Sequence record: AP019521.1
Direction: 5' to 3' (one strand)
From: Escherichia phage KIT01
Length of the DNA stretch: 64,000 nt
In this document: piece by piece, positions 23 to 5,913 of the stretch
Layout of the letters: every line of letters starts with the position of its first letter
How positions within the stretch are numbered: position 1 is the stretch's first letter
Notes under the pieces: model-generated
What the model saw: the letters and a program-made list of their open reading frames with translations, nothing else
What the model was told of the DNA's origin: nothing
Database searches by the model: none
Position numbers and translations under genes: made by a program

Positions 23-352
23 CTAGAGTTGTACATCACTTCTGCAATATTCTAAAAATAATTTATCATTGTCTACAGTATCCCAACGACGCCAAGATGG
101 ATTCCAGACCAGAGCGTTGTCACCACAATCATTGAGCTTAAAATGGTCGTAGTACATAGCTATATGTCTAGTTTCGTCACCAGAGAACCCTAGTATAGGC
201 TCACCGTGGGTGTGATACATATGATGGTGCATTGAGAGGTCGCATTTGTAAAACATCTCACGTTTACCACGAACGAACAAGAAAGCTTGCCCATTCATAT
301 AGAATTCTTTATCTGTTTTCAAAAGATATTTGAATACTGAATCTTTGTGCAT
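23..352 (-). CDS. hypothetical His-rich small protein (start moved to internal ATG with AGGAGG RBS)
   Basis: ORF 23..367; internal Met at 352 preceded by taggaggactt; His cluster SMHHHMYHTHGE. Confidence 0.4.
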   Translation of the reverse strand: MHKDSVFKYLLKTDKEFYMNGQAFLFVRGKREMFYKCDLSMHHHMYHTHGEPILGFSGDETRHIAMYYDHFKLNDCGDNALVWNPSWRRWDTVDNDKLFLEYCRSDVQL

Positions 353-382
353 AAGTCCTCCTACCACATCCGTGTGGTTAAA

Positions 383-610
383 TTATTTTCCTAACGAAAC
401 ACGAGTAGGTTTTTTACCAAAATAGTCTTCATAAGAACCATCTAAACGTCCCGCTTTAGACCGACAATATGAATCGTACTTTTTATAATAAGTCATCTCA
501 GTATTATAACGTGGGTGTCTATCAGCCATAATAATACTTAGTGGCCAACCTTTGGCATAATCGCGAAGACCATTTATTTTACGAATGTATCGTTTTTTCA
601 ATTTTAGCAT
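383..610 (-). CDS. hypothetical small basic protein
   Basis: 75-aa ORF in compact minus-strand early gene run, overlaps stop of upstream gene. Confidence 0.3.
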   Translation of the reverse strand: MLKLKKRYIRKINGLRDYAKGWPLSIIMADRHPRYNTEMTYYKKYDSYCRSKAGRLDGSYEDYFGKKPTRVSLGK

Positions 611-828
611 GAGCTTGGGTACCAGATTTTACCATCGGCCTGAGCAACGAAGGTGCGACCAGCTTCTTCACCATAACAAGAGCTATTCAGCCAATCTTCG
701 AGACGAACTTCACCGTCATAATCGTCTAGCTCAACACCAAAATCCTGAGCAGAAGCCATATCTTTTACTTTCTTATACAGTGCGGCCAGTTCAAGTGCCG
801 CTTTTTCTAATTCATTAATATCAGACAT
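604..828 (-). CDS. small acidic protein, member 1 of tandem paralog family (C-terminal W-x-SSC)
   Basis: 74 aa, ends IWYPSSC; shares motif and junction sequence with next three ORFs. Confidence 0.5.
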   Translation of the reverse strand: MSDINELEKAALELAALYKKVKDMASAQDFGVELDDYDGEVRLEDWLNSSCYGEEAGRTFVAQADGKIWYPSSC

Positions 829-839
829 TTTTTATCACC

Positions 840-1049
840 TTAGCAAGACATAGAGGAGCTAAACCAGAAACCTTCACCTTCAGGAATACCGTAGTCATCA
901 CGGGCCCATTCATAATCATCATATTCCGGACTAGAAGCTGGAATATATTCTTCGCCACCAGCGTGGAAGTGCTGACCTGTTTCGTCAGCCACGGCCTGGC
1001 CTTTACGTACTAATTCGCGGATTTGTTTTTCAATTTCATCAATAGTCAT
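840..1049 (-). CDS. small acidic protein, paralog family member 2
   Basis: 69 aa, ends FWFSSSMSC; conserved 3-prime junction ttagca...gaggag. Confidence 0.5.
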   Translation of the reverse strand: MTIDEIEKQIRELVRKGQAVADETGQHFHAGGEEYIPASSPEYDDYEWARDDYGIPEGEGFWFSSSMSC

Positions 1050-1058
1050 TTTATTTCC

Positions 1059-1340
1059 TTAGCATTCAGAAGAAGAGGACACCCAACCACCATTTTCTAG
1101 GCTGGTAGTGTAATCATGCTGGTTTACAATAGCGTACTGAGCTTCACCGTATTCTTCCCAGTGGGCAAGGTCGGCTTTCAGGGCGCCAGGAGAATAATAG
1201 TCACCGCCCATACCGCGAGCAGGGTATATATTAAAATGAGTCTCATATTTGTTTGCAATTTCCTCGGCACGACGAATAGCTTTATGGATATCATTTACTG
1301 CATCAGCCAGTTCTTTATTTTTACGGTAATCATTCATCAT
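1059..1340 (-). CDS. small acidic protein, paralog family member 3
   Basis: 93 aa, ends GGWVSSSSEC; KYETHF and DYYSPG motifs shared with member 4. Confidence 0.5.
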   Translation of the reverse strand: MMNDYRKNKELADAVNDIHKAIRRAEEIANKYETHFNIYPARGMGGDYYSPGALKADLAHWEEYGEAQYAIVNQHDYTTSLENGGWVSSSSEC

Positions 1341-1349
1341 AGCGTTTCC

Positions 1350-1640
1350 TTAGCACAATGCCGAAGAGGAGACCCAAGCACCAACGGTAACGACACCGTT
1401 TTCAACTTCACCACCGTTGTTTTCAATTTCATCTTTAAACCACTGGGAGCATTCGTAACCGACAGGATAATATGTACGACCCGAACCATAATCACCAGTG
1501 CCGAATTCAATACCATACTTATCGGCAATAGCTTCACATTCATGTTCGATGGTATTCACTTTATTCAGAAGAGCATAGATAGCCTTTTCTGCAGATTTCT
1601 CGTCGTTGTGTTCCGGGATTTCGATTTCAATTTTATTCAT
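1350..1640 (-). CDS. small acidic protein, paralog family member 4
   Basis: 96 aa, ends GAWVSSSALC; KYGIEF and YYPVGYE motifs. Confidence 0.5.
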   Translation of the reverse strand: MNKIEIEIPEHNDEKSAEKAIYALLNKVNTIEHECEAIADKYGIEFGTGDYGSGRTYYPVGYECSQWFKDEIENNGGEVENGVVTVGAWVSSSALC

Positions 1641-1987
1641 GATTTACATTCCTTAATAAAGGTTTCAAGGTCATTACGTTTAGTTTGTTTTACATACTCA
1701 TTATAATTAGCCATCTCTAAAGCATATCTCTTTTTGCTTGGCTTGTTTATCCTATTGGTGTTGATAATATCCAAGACAAGAGGGATAAAGTATCCTATTA
1801 AAGCTGGAACCCAAATCCAGGCAGGGTTCAATTCAAATAGATTTTGTGTCGTATCATTAACGACTCCGCCAGCAATTAGTCCAACAAGCCCGGCAATCAT
1901 ACCAGTGACAAGTCCAGCGAATAAAGAAATAGCGATATCATAATCTGCTAATGCGTAACCAGGGTCGGTTTTACTAGGCTTATACAT
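1637..1987 (-). CDS. small membrane protein (two predicted TM helices)
   Basis: ORF 1637..2161 trimmed to internal ATG at 1987 preceded by aagagg; hydrophobic stretches ISLFAGLVTGMIAGLVGLIAGG and WIWVPALIGYFIPLVL. Confidence 0.4.
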   Translation of the reverse strand: MYKPSKTDPGYALADYDIAISLFAGLVTGMIAGLVGLIAGGVVNDTTQNLFELNPAWIWVPALIGYFIPLVLDIINTNRINKPSKKRYALEMANYNEYVKQTKRNDLETFIKECKS

Positions 1988-2516
1988 TACGAACCTCTTT
2001 AGCGTATTCGCGGCATTCAGCAATAAAACGATTAAGCTTCCGTTGCTGTTTTCGAATCTCTGATGTATACTCATTGGCCAAAATAATAAGCTCATCTTTA
2101 TCGTAATTTTTAATATCAGAGTAAGATGGGCGGCGGTCGACCATACCAAAATGGTCACCATTTTCTAACATCAAATAGCATACTAAATGGTAATCATCGT
2201 CGGCATTAGTAAGCTGTTTATAATCGCTTGGTTCATTTAAAGAGTATACTGAATAGCGTAGCCCAGCGAACTCCACTCGTTGAATATCCAGATTTACGTC
2301 AATAATTTCTAAAGCTTCTGCAAAAGAAAGGTCCTCAGCCAAAGCAAAGATAAAAGGTAATTTGGTAGTATGCCCACGGCTACTTGTTCGACTTAAGAAA
2401 TCATTGGAATAACCTAAGTCTTGGCGAATTCTATAAAGAACTGAATTAGTTTCATGTGAAAGACCACTATGTTTAAACCAATCAATATTTGATATCAGGT
2501 CGTCATATAAACTCAT
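1980..2516 (-). CDS. hypothetical protein
   Basis: 178-aa ORF; ggaggagagg RBS region upstream at 2521-2530; terminator-like hairpin just beyond. Confidence 0.45.
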   Translation of the reverse strand: MSLYDDLISNIDWFKHSGLSHETNSVLYRIRQDLGYSNDFLSRTSSRGHTTKLPFIFALAEDLSFAEALEIIDVNLDIQRVEFAGLRYSVYSLNEPSDYKQLTNADDDYHLVCYLMLENGDHFGMVDRRPSYSDIKNYDKDELIILANEYTSEIRKQQRKLNRFIAECREYAKEVRNV

Positions 2517-3158: not shown

Positions 3159-3202
3159 AGTATTTCCTTCAGTTGGTTAACGTTTTGTAATCCATGAGGA
3201 CA

Positions 3203-3232
3203 TTATACCCTGTCCTCTGAGGGTTGTAAACA
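3203..3232 (-). promoter_or_regulatory. sigma70 early-type promoter (GTTTAC -35, TATAAT -10)
   Basis: minus strand GTTTACA-N17/18-TATAAT upstream of gene 2565..3158. Confidence 0.5.
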
Positions 3233-5756: not shown

Positions 5757-5831
5757 TGGTATCCCGCCCTGGGATCGAACCAGGACCGCAAACTTAGAAG
5801 GATCGTATGCTATCCATTACACCAGCGGGAC
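5757..5831 (-). tRNA. tRNA-Arg (anticodon UCU), CCA encoded
   Basis: manual cloverleaf: 7-bp acceptor GTCCCGC/GCGGGAT, T-arm CCTGG-TTCGATC-CCAGG, anticodon loop CTTCTAA with U33 and A37; one mismatch in anticodon stem. Confidence 0.7.
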
Positions 5832-5836
5832 GTAGT

Positions 5837-5913
5837 TGGTGACCCAGACCAGATTTGAACTGGTAACCTTTCCCTTATGAGGGGACTGCTGCTAACCATT
5901 GAGCTACAGGGCC
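5837..5913 (-). tRNA. tRNA with CAU anticodon (Ile-lysidine type or Met), CCA encoded
   Basis: manual fold: acceptor GGCCCTG/CTGGGTC (one mismatch), U8, D-arm GCTCAATGGTTAGC, anticodon loop CTCATAA, T-arm ACCAG-TTCAAAT-CTGGT. Confidence 0.6.

What the first reader, a model, noticed from the sequence alone, without database searches (positions are those of the whole stretch)
604..1640. Tandem array of four paralogous small acidic proteins ending in W-x-S-S-(S)-x-x-C
Four consecutive minus-strand ORFs (74, 69, 93, 96 aa) share a helical N-terminus, a Tyr/Gly-rich middle (KYGIEF/KYETHF, DYYSPG/YYPVGYE) and a strictly conserved C-terminal motif (WYPSSC, WFSSSMSC, WVSSSSEC, WVSSSALC). The nucleotide sequence around each stop/start junction is also conserved (ttccttagca...gaagaggaNacccaaNcacc), pointing to recent duplication. 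Rapidly duplicating small early proteins in T4-type hyperplastic regions are typical of host-takeover or anti-defence factors. The invariant terminal Cys after a Ser run suggests a functional tail (metal ligand, disulfide, or modification site).
Basis: seen in the sequence. Interest (0 to 1): 0.6.

Follow-up and report, generated by a model that had tools for sequence, protein, structure and literature searches.

The report
Tail-motif small proteins paired with nucleotidyltransferase
Four neighbouring small acidic phage proteins that all end in Trp-x-Ser-Ser-x-x-Cys belong to a large uncharacterised family that, across many unrelated phages, sits just upstream of a MenT-like nucleotidyltransferase gene, which points to an undescribed two-part phage system.

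Summary
Four back-to-back minus-strand genes (604-828, 840-1049, 1059-1340, 1350-1640) in a JS98-like (Dhakavirus) T4-type phage are paralogs. All four match phrog_899, a family of unknown function. The C-terminal W-x-[S/A/P]-S-S-x-x-C is kept in 131 of 147 distant representatives, against 1 of 4317 background ORFs.

The duplication is old, not recent. Paralog DNA identity equals shuffled background, and each paralog has 42-70% identical orthologs in other T4-like genera. Copy number still varies: close relatives have 4 or 5, and other phages have 1-6.

The small-protein fold has no solved relative. My best reading is that the tail engages the nucleotidyltransferase, as a Ser acceptor or as a plug. 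No function has been published, and anti-defence activity is untested.

The parts
1350..1640 (-). Member 4 (96 aa), the most typical copy. It has an N-terminal helix, a DYGSGRTYYP loop and the tail WVSSSALC.
   Evidence: ORF. phrog_899 match E 9.1e-23. AF2 model pLDDT 91.3. Orthologs are 94% identical in JS98, 65% in Mosigvirus and 37-47% in other T4-like genera.
1059..1340 (-). Member 3 (93 aa), with an ARGMGGDYYSP loop and the tail WVSSSSEC.
   Evidence: ORF. phrog_899 match E 7.3e-20. An identical protein is encoded in phages PSD2002 and IME540 and in an ENA contig, each with a DUF7277+DUF7275 gene about 1.3 kb downstream.
840..1049 (-). Member 2 (69 aa), with a reduced loop HAGGEEYIP and the tail WFSSSMSC.
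   Evidence: ORF. phrog_899 match E 1.9e-13. Orthologs are 48-55% identical in other genera.
604..828 (-). Member 1 (74 aa), the most divergent copy. It lacks the Gly-rich loop, has the short tail WYPSSC, and carries an internal second copy of the motif (WLNSSC).
   Evidence: ORF. phrog_899 match E 4.3e-10. It was not found by my own family HMM at E<=1e-3. Orthologs are 42-70% identical in other genera.
1353..1376 (-). Tail motif of member 4 (WVSSSALC), directly before the stop codon.
   Evidence: Translation check. Family-wide conservation.
1062..1085 (-). Tail motif of member 3 (WVSSSSEC).
843..866 (-). Tail motif of member 2 (WFSSSMSC).
607..624 (-). Tail motif of member 1 (WYPSSC).
676..693 (-). 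Internal extra copy of the motif in member 1 (WLNSSC).
   Evidence: Internal W-x-[SN]-S-x(0-2)-C copies occur in 13 of 147 representatives, and 47 of 147 carry two or more copies of the looser W-x-[SANPTGD]-S pattern. The stricter W-x-S-S occurs at least once in 108 of 147 representatives, against 2% of shuffled sequences.
1464..1493 (-). Gly-rich loop of member 4 (DYGSGRTYYP). This is the family's second conserved motif, consensus (A)YGMGG(T)Y(Y)P.
   Evidence: G52, G54 and Y57 are nearly invariant in the 97-sequence alignment.
383..610 (-). 75-aa ORF (phrog_7065). Its ATG overlaps the Cys codon and stop of member 1 (tcATGCTAA). It is the first of three small genes that separate the array from the off-window nucleotidyltransferase gene in Dhakaviruses.
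   Evidence: It is unrelated to the array family and to the second small family.
23..367 (-). 114-aa ORF (phrog_9796), the second intervening gene. The DUF7277+DUF7275 nucleotidyltransferase gene would end about 285 bp beyond window position 1.
   Evidence: Position inferred from LHE83 (L002 1757-2716, where window position 3 equals L002 3001) and from L093-L095.
3202..3230 (-). Best sigma-70-type promoter-like site upstream of the gene string (TTTACA-17-TATAAT, 11 of 12). This is a consensus match only.
   Evidence: the number of such sites is not above the shuffled expectation. No T4 late-promoter motif TATAAATA lies on the minus strand below 4717.

Best explanation
The four genes encode the small-protein component of a conserved two-part phage module. 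The other component is a ~300-320 aa Pol-beta-superfamily nucleotidyltransferase (Pfam DUF7277+DUF7275, phrog_2141) whose closest structural relatives are MenT/AbiEii-type enzymes. It is encoded downstream on the same strand, and in this phage it lies just left of the window.

Each small protein has four parts: a long N-terminal helix, a small sheet carrying a Gly-rich loop (YGMGG-Y-P), an acidic linker of variable length, and an invariant tail W-x-S-S-x-x-C.

I propose that the tail, and its occasional internal repeats, is the element that enters the acceptor/RNA-binding site of the nucleotidyltransferase. In this picture Trp stands in for a base, a Ser hydroxyl for the acceptor hydroxyl, and the acidic linker for the RNA backbone. 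The most likely outcome is transfer of a nucleotide monophosphate onto a tail serine. The 1-6 diverged paralogs would then be a set of differently shaped proteins that all receive the same tag.

Shown: paralogy, motif conservation, gene linkage, the nucleotidyltransferase fold, and intact catalytic residues. Inferred: physical contact, the acceptor role of Ser, and any downstream biological effect.

My own probabilities are about 0.85 for a functional module, about 0.55 for the tail engaging the enzyme, and about 0.3 for serine nucleotidylylation.
For: Family and motif:
- All four genes match phrog_899.
- 426 representatives at 50% identity were found. Of the top 147, 131 end exactly in W-x-[SAP]-S-S-x-x-C.
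- The motif matches 1 of 4317 background ORFs.
- Extra internal copies occur in the acidic linker.

Linkage:
- Unbiased neighbour clustering found one family near the arrays in 29 of 44 sources with a family hit (43 fetched loci plus the window).
- In viral loci seeded only on the small-protein motif, 28 of 28 with at least 1.2 kb of downstream sequence carry the partner on the same strand, 18-2430 bp away. The figure for control loci is 0 of 32 (Fisher p about 1e-17). Every locus lacking it is truncated.
- The partners fall into 32 clusters at 60% identity.
- In loci seeded on the partner, tail proteins are adjacent in phiPsa347, anhysbys, Mendera, Abraxas and ACP17, with a weak case in H101. 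They are also adjacent in 5 of 5 metagenome-assembled genome loci.
- Genomes encoding the identical member-3 protein carry DUF7277+DUF7275 about 1.3 kb downstream.

Partner identity:
- Invariant G5-S6, D24-x-D26 and E68, plus K124/H127/R128.
- AF2 pLDDT 92.3.

Co-variation: short-form homologs of the enzyme (~250 aa) lack tail proteins and instead sit beside a different, also tandemly duplicated, small family.

The small proteins are acidic, with a family median pI of 4.46.
Against: - There is no direct evidence of contact or modification. I had no remaining structure-prediction jobs for a complex.
- In T4-like phages three unrelated small genes lie between the array and the enzyme gene.
- The AF2 model places W89-S91 in a beta-strand of the fold rather than in a free tail. 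Only the last residues have lower confidence, with pLDDT of the last block at 74. The motif could therefore be structural or form a ligand site.
- Characterised MenT enzymes act on tRNA 3' ends, not on proteins (PMC10435456).
- The partner matches no Pfam nucleotidyltransferase or AbiEii model by sequence.
- Linked loci are not phylogenetically independent, so the Fisher p value overstates the evidence.
Confidence: 0.4

Rival explanations
1. Antitoxin-like regulators. The small acidic proteins bind and silence the downstream nucleotidyltransferase, as the 68-aa helical MenA1 silences MenT1. They would use the long helix and/or an RNA-mimicking acidic Trp-rich linker and tail as a plug. The enzyme's real substrate would be tRNA or another RNA 3' end.
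For: - Gene order is small protein first and enzyme second on one strand, often 18-100 bp apart.
- The small proteins are acidic and have a 29-residue N-terminal helix.
- The closest fold relatives of the enzyme are MenT toxins.
- MenA1 is small, is encoded upstream of menT1, and neutralises through its long helix (PMC10435456).
- Some partner-family loci sit next to RNA ligase and phosphoesterase genes or tRNA genes.
Against: - Four to five paralog lineages have each been kept for a long time, and there are up to six copies per enzyme. This is not expected of redundant antitoxins.
- The best-conserved part is the tail, not the helix.
- No structural match to any solved antitoxin was found.
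- The hosts of the module are lytic phages, and a search of 185,579 bacterial and archaeal species genomes found only 5 metagenome-assembled genome loci.
Confidence: 0.25
2. Free-standing host-takeover or anti-defence proteins. The tail would bind a host target or a metal, and the linkage to the nucleotidyltransferase would reflect shared residence in an accessory-gene region.
For: - The proteins are small and acidic, lie in the variable e.2-e.6 interval of T4-type genomes, and vary in copy number between close relatives.
- No known fold was found.
- Neither family was found in the T4 regions I scanned.
Against: - Linkage holds across Straboviridae genera, Otagovirus, Phapecoctavirus, Menderavirus, Busanvirus and jumbo-phage contigs, where the surrounding genes differ completely.
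- There is no match to PADLOC models, and no DNA-mimic or sponge fold was detected.
Confidence: 0.12
3. Adaptor subunits. The invariant tail docks each paralog onto the same enzyme, and the diverged bodies recruit different targets for nucleotidylylation.
For: A constant tail is combined with diverged bodies and several long-lived paralogs per genome. The enzyme is highly conserved, with 57 invariant columns in 40 sequences.
Against: The bodies share one fold and a conserved Gly-rich loop. Most variation is in linker length and acidity, which is a poor basis for distinct target recognition. There is no direct evidence.
Confidence: 0.1
4. Precursors of a cross-linked (RiPP-like) product. A tail Ser would be activated (for example O-nucleotidylylated) and eliminated to dehydroalanine, and the terminal Cys would add to it to form a lanthionine-type ring. 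S(-3)-x-x-C(0)-COOH is the ring pattern of lanthipeptides and of AviCys peptides.
For: Ser at -4 and -3 and Cys at 0 are invariant (131, 130 and 131 of 131). Internal copies keep Ser-Ser followed by Cys within 0-2 residues. An enzyme able to activate hydroxyl groups is always adjacent. The resemblance to lanthipeptide motifs is from my own knowledge and was not tested.
Against: No LanB/LanC/LanM/LanD-like or other RiPP enzyme matched among the nine array and flanking ORFs that I scanned with Pfam; elsewhere I relied on deposited annotations and neighbour clustering. The 'leader' is a well-folded domain. The spacing between Ser and Cys varies in the internal copies.
Confidence: 0.05

Closest known systems
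MenAT1 (MenA1-MenT1) and AbiE (AbiEi-AbiEii) nucleotidyltransferase toxin-antitoxin systems
   Different: - There is no sequence-level match to DUF1814/AbiEii.
- The enzyme is about 120 residues longer than MenT1.
- The small proteins have an alpha+beta fold with a Gly-rich loop and an invariant W-x-S-S-x-x-C tail that MenA1 and AbiEi lack.
- There are 1-6 paralogs per enzyme.
- The module is found in lytic phage genomes, not bacterial chromosomes.
- Toxicity and tRNA modification are untested.
Protein-nucleotidylylating Pol-beta enzymes with a small protein target: MntA-HepT (type VII TA), GlnD-PII, GlnE-glutamine synthetase
   Same: The concept is shared: a nucleotidyltransferase genetically or functionally paired with a protein that it tags with AMP or UMP. 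This comparison is from my own knowledge.
   Different: Those enzymes modify tyrosine, whereas the candidate acceptors here are serines. There is no homology between the small proteins. The modification here is hypothetical.
Antibiotic O-nucleotidyltransferases ANT(2'') and LnuA/LinB
   Different: They act on small molecules, have no dedicated small-protein partner, and lack the large conserved C-terminal helical domain (DUF7275).
Small acidic phage anti-defence proteins (Ocr, Arn, ArdA-type DNA mimics; Tad/Acb sponges)
   Same: They are small, acidic, lie in an early or accessory region, and vary in copy number.
   Different: No sequence or fold similarity was found. Those proteins act alone, whereas this family is strictly linked to an enzyme.

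Membership tests
phrog_899 (phage protein family, function unknown) | Significant match to the family profile HMM | tested here: met
   E values are 4.3e-10, 1.9e-13, 7.3e-20 and 9.1e-23 for the four ORFs. All match the C-terminal ~90 positions of the 221-position profile.
   All four ORFs meet this. So do 131 of 147 distant representatives.
   The loop is present in members 3 (ARGMGGDYYSP) and 4 (DYGSGRTYYP), reduced in member 2 (HAGGEEYIP) and absent in member 1.
   The position falls outside the window, which ends 603 bp downstream of member 1. The gene is present in every close relative examined: LHE83, JS98, PSD2002, IME540 and an ENA contig.
MenAT/AbiE-type nucleotidyltransferase toxin-antitoxin systems | Toxin with the Pol-beta nucleotidyltransferase fold and motif I/II residues (hG[GS]...DxD, third carboxylate) | tested here: met
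MenAT/AbiE-type nucleotidyltransferase toxin-antitoxin systems | Sequence membership in DUF1814/AbiEii, including the family-specific motif IV | tested here: not met
   No Pfam family other than DUF7275/DUF7277 was matched by any of 23 partners at E<=5, apart from scattered single chance hits. There is no PDB sequence hit at E<=10. A K124-x3-R128 element could correspond to motif III, but motif IV could not be identified.
MenAT/AbiE-type nucleotidyltransferase toxin-antitoxin systems | Enzyme is toxic through tRNA 3'-end extension and the cognate small protein neutralises it | not testable with these tools
   This needs expression and tRNA-sequencing experiments.
MenAT/AbiE-type nucleotidyltransferase toxin-antitoxin systems | Antitoxin related to MenA1 or AbiEi | tested here: not met
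Protein nucleotidylylation pairs (MntA-HepT, GlnD-PII) | Covalent NMP adduct on the partner protein | not testable with these tools
   This needs mass spectrometry.
DNA-mimic anti-restriction proteins (Ocr/ArdA/Arn) | Fold or sequence similarity to a known mimic | tested here: not met
Lanthipeptide/AviCys RiPP precursors | Dedicated dehydratase, cyclase or decarboxylase gene in the cluster | tested here: not met
   In the window, none of the nine array and flanking ORFs matched a RiPP-enzyme Pfam family. Across loci the only neighbour family that recurs is the nucleotidyltransferase, and no such enzyme appears in the deposited annotations of the ten fetched phage loci, most of whose ORFs are only 'hypothetical protein' and were not scanned with Pfam.

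The most novel reading that the evidence does not exclude
A MenT-like phage nucleotidyltransferase uses proteins rather than tRNA as acceptors. It would attach one or more nucleotides to the serine hydroxyls of a W-x-S-S-x-x-C tail that mimics an RNA 3' end. This would create a family of nucleotide-tagged small effectors. It would be a previously undescribed phage post-translational modification system, present in several hundred sequenced phages.
Probability: 0.3. Interest if true: 0.85.

Novelty: new variant of a known kind. Interest (0 to 1): 0.62.

Why it matters
The family is large: 426 clusters at 50% identity for the small proteins, more than 1900 clusters at 90% identity for the partner, and 733 phage records carrying the partner. 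It occurs in therapeutic-type E. coli, Klebsiella, Acinetobacter, Pseudomonas and Aeromonas phages, yet neither component has a described function.

The strict pairing turns two 'hypothetical protein' families into one testable system with a defined enzyme, a defined candidate recognition motif and obvious mutants.

If the enzyme tags the tails, this would add a protein substrate class to MenT-like nucleotidyltransferases. If the small proteins gate an RNA-modifying enzyme, this would be a phage-borne relative of the MenAT/AbiE abortive-infection toxins, used by the virus rather than the host. Either outcome bears on how phages manipulate tRNA and nucleotide biology.

It also corrects database labels such as 'tail completion protein' and 'prohead assembly scaffold protein'.

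Tried and rejected
Searches that found nothing for the four proteins:
- Pfam, NCBIfam and PADLOC gave only sub-threshold noise.
- PDB sequence search with profiles of the small family and of the partner found nothing meaningful.

Tools that failed or were unavailable:
- The afdb50 library was not available.
- The search for related loci with the 97-sequence alignment failed because no stretch was conserved enough. I replaced it with a degenerate YGMGGTY DNA pattern scan.
- There was no exact-sequence record for member 4.

Hypotheses rejected:
- Recent duplication.
- P0174, a 2519-aa MucBP-type surface protein, as a relative. It is a repeat-driven false positive.
- A fusion of small protein and enzyme. 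None was found, and the long ORF calls are start-codon artefacts.
- The 75-aa ORF at 383-610 as a member of the second small family. hhalign probability was 2%.

Literature: searches for phrog_899, RB69 ORF134c/136c/137c/139c, DUF7275/7277, 'C-terminal cysteine' with nucleotidyltransferase and phage, and MenT-like phage enzymes returned nothing relevant. The SegB amplification paper (PMC13096335) concerns other loci.

T4: neither family was found in bases 1-50,000 or 64,000-74,000. I did not scan the rest of T4.
Full report
**Source and observation**

The window is from a JS98-like T4-type phage (Dhakavirus). Its first 4 kb are 92-96% identical to phages LQ5, PSD9, MX01, LHE83 and IME281. In JS98 the region lies between e.2 and e.6 of the 'e' gene cluster.

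The four minus-strand ORFs exist exactly as described: 604-828 (74 aa), 840-1049 (69 aa), 1059-1340 (93 aa) and 1350-1640 (96 aa). They end in WYPSSC, WFSSSMSC, WVSSSSEC and WVSSSALC. They are packed 9-11 nt apart, each with TAA followed by a GGA/GGT ribosome-binding site. They are acidic, pI 4.2-5.0.

Pairwise identity is low at 16-41%. All four nevertheless match one profile, phrog_899, with E from 4e-10 to 9e-23. Pfam, NCBIfam, PADLOC and PDB sequence searches found nothing.

**The tail is the hallmark of a large family**

An exhaustive profile search found 426 cluster representatives at 50% identity. Of the 147 best true hits, 135 end in Cys and 131 end exactly in W-x-[S/A/P]-S-S-x-x-C. 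Trp at -7, Ser at -4 and Cys at 0 are invariant among those, and Ser at -3 is present in 130 of 131. A few carry one extra residue after the Cys.

A second motif, (A)YGMGG(T)Y(Y)P, follows the N-terminal helix. About a third of representatives (47 of 147) carry further W-x-S-S-type copies in the acidic linker. Thirteen of 147 have an internal W-x-[SN]-S-x(0-2)-C, as does member 1 here (WLNSSC, 676-693).

The tail pattern occurs in only 1 of 4317 background ORFs of similar size.

**The duplication is old**

DNA identity between the paralogs is 0.44-0.51, no better than shuffled sequence at 0.43-0.47. The 'conserved junction' is the coding sequence of G-x-W-V-S-S-S..C plus the stop and the ribosome-binding site, and is clear only for members 3 and 4.

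Each paralog has its own orthologs in other T4-like genera: 42-70% identity for member 1, 48-55% for member 2, 44-56% for member 3 and 37-65% for member 4. Paralogs within one genome share only about 26-32% over partial lengths.

Copy number still varies. JS98 and an ENA contig that encodes the identical member 3 carry a fifth member (65 aa, ending ...WVSSSYEC) between members 2 and 3. That member is absent from the window. Arrays elsewhere hold 1-6 copies, and 39 of 49 loci have two or more by a rough count.

**Structure of the small protein**

An AlphaFold model of the 96-aa member is confident (pLDDT 91.3). It shows a helix at residues 14-42, a small sheet, a short helix at 66-74, and W89-S91 in the last strand.

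**The conserved partner**

I scanned IMG/VR with a degenerate DNA pattern for YGMGGTY. I then searched the 73 loci with a family HMM and clustered the same-strand neighbours without prior expectation.

One family stood out. It was present near the arrays in 29 of the 44 sources with a family hit (43 fetched loci plus the window). It is a 280-345 aa protein with Pfam DUF7277 at the N-terminus and DUF7275 at the C-terminus, and it matches phrog_2141.

Re-analysis showed that all 14 sources lacking it (13 loci plus the window) are cut off within 1,135 bp downstream of the small genes. Among pattern-seeded loci with at least 1.2 kb downstream, 28 of 28 have it on the same strand, 18-2430 bp away. 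The figure is 0 of 32 for pattern-seeded loci that lack the small family (Fisher p about 1e-17). The loci are not fully independent, but the partners span 32 clusters at 60% identity.

Seeding from the partner instead gives the same result. It occurs in 733 phage records. Tail proteins sit beside it in the following phages:
- Pseudomonas phiPsa347 (Otagovirus)
- E. coli anhysbys (Phapecoctavirus)
- Stenotrophomonas Mendera
- Acinetobacter Abraxas
- Acidovorax ACP17
- Pseudoalteromonas H101 (weak case)

They are also adjacent in all five metagenome-assembled genome loci found in the bacterial genome collection, which are probably phage contigs.

In this phage the partner gene lies just left of the window. 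In LHE83 it ends about 285 bp before the position that corresponds to window base 1. Three genomes encoding the identical member 3 have it about 1.3 kb downstream. Neither family was found in the T4 regions I scanned. The JS98 annotators cite only RB69 and 44RR relatives for these genes.

**What the partner is**

Alignments show invariant G5-S6, D24-x-D26 and E68, which is the Pol-beta nucleotidyltransferase signature. A dense set of invariant residues fills the helical C-terminal domain: K124, H127, R128, K138, H173, D192-H193-D194, H197, E239-E240 and others.

The AlphaFold model is confident, with pLDDT 92.3. Its best PDB neighbours are nucleotidyltransferases:

There is no sequence-level match to Pfam DUF1814/AbiEii or to any PDB chain. 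I therefore call it MenT-like in fold, not a member of that family. Published MenT enzymes extend tRNA 3' ends. MenT1 is neutralised by a 68-aa helical antitoxin encoded upstream (PMC10435456).

**Mechanism**

The data support a two-part module.

Several observations fit a model in which the tail, and its internal repeats, enters the acceptor or RNA-binding site of the enzyme:
- The tail is invariant while the bodies have diverged.
- The enzyme's catalytic residues are always intact.
- The invariant pair of serines could supply acceptor hydroxyls.
- The linker is acidic and rich in Trp.
- Several paralog lineages have been kept for a long time.

I favour transfer of a nucleotide to a tail serine, at about 0.3. 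The main rival is a MenA1-like inhibitory role, at about 0.25. Adaptor, free-standing anti-defence and RiPP-like cross-link readings are less likely. None of these can be decided without experiments or complex prediction.

Several points count against over-interpretation:
- In T4-like phages three unrelated genes separate the array from the enzyme gene.
- The model places part of the tail within the fold.
- Known MenT enzymes act on RNA, not protein.

**Expression context**

No internal promoter or terminator is evident. The best sigma-70-like site is upstream at 3230-3202, and no T4 late-promoter motif lies on the minus strand below 4717. Expression timing therefore remains open.

**Novelty**

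Both families are catalogued only as unknowns (phrog_899; DUF7277/DUF7275; phrog_2141). Full-text searches found no paper on them or on their linkage.

The nearest known arrangement is the MenAT1/AbiE type, a nucleotidyltransferase plus a small upstream protein. This module differs in four ways: the small-protein fold, the tail motif, the paralog arrays, and a host range restricted to phages. I therefore rate it a new variant of a known kind, and a good experimental lead.

Noticed in passing
L079 5630-5968 and 6011-6322; L083 3220-3600 and 3597-4058; L082 4705-5001; L084 5953-6348: Short-form homologs of the nucleotidyltransferase (~250 aa) in Streptomyces, Gordonia, KVP40-like Vibrio and DSS3_VP1 phages have no tail-motif proteins. 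Instead they sit next to a different small-protein family, often as two tandem paralogs, with shared motif ...GGEG.G..Y..V..I.D....YF(K/R)..G.Y.S.DG...DG...EV.P....T. That family has no Pfam match.
   Followed up: partly
L001 6344-6553 (JS98) and L001 6563-6760: JS98 carries five family members, but the ortholog of window member 2 (L001 6344-6553, 69 aa) is not annotated in the GenBank record. JS98 orf127 (65 aa) is a fifth member missing from the window. An ENA contig with an identical member 3 also has the five-gene form (L095 5560-5757).
   Followed up: yes
phage records MT150133, MW679410, MW250787, MZ571829, NC_055783, OP558005: Family members are labelled 'tail completion protein', and the nucleotidyltransferase is labelled 'prohead assembly scaffold protein' or 'putative antibiotic resistance protein' in some records. 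These labels have no support in the analyses here and look like pipeline artefacts.
   Followed up: partly
L084 2001-3546; L079 3064-3723; L083 4110-5426; L078 9840-10490; window 5757-5913: Loci of the nucleotidyltransferase family often lie near RNA-repair or tRNA genes. Examples are phosphoesterase plus RNA ligase 2 in DSS3_VP1, RNA ligase in Annadreamy, and tRNA clusters in OneUp, Mendera and this window (tRNA-Arg and tRNA-Met). Elsewhere the neighbours are nucleotide-metabolism genes (RNR, thymidylate synthase, NAMPT). This is a weak hint of an RNA or nucleotide substrate.
   Followed up: no
window 604-612: The start codon of the downstream 75-aa ORF (383-610) overlaps the terminal Cys codon and stop of member 1 (tcATGCTAA). 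Upstream, the stop of the membrane-protein ORF (1637-1990) overlaps the start of member 4 (ATGA). The whole string looks translationally coupled.
   Followed up: partly
L092 14685-15026 (T4 mrh.1): T4 Mrh.1 ends in a Cys/Ser-rich run (...WAGDSCGSSCDSSCSSTSCD). It gave only a chance-level score against the partner HMM (E 0.49) and no reported hit against the small-family HMM, so the resemblance to the W..SS..C theme is probably coincidental.
   Followed up: no
L009 8516-9751 (Acinetobacter phage Ac42): The nucleotidyltransferase ORF here appears to carry a genuine ~100-residue N-terminal extension (411 aa) that is unrelated to the small family. Other long calls are start-codon artefacts.
   Followed up: partly
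window 1637-1990 and 1980-2516: Directly upstream of the array lie a predicted membrane protein (phrog_2330, 117 aa from the internal start) and a 178-aa protein (phrog_8788). Both are of unknown function and are conserved in Dhakaviruses.
   Followed up: no
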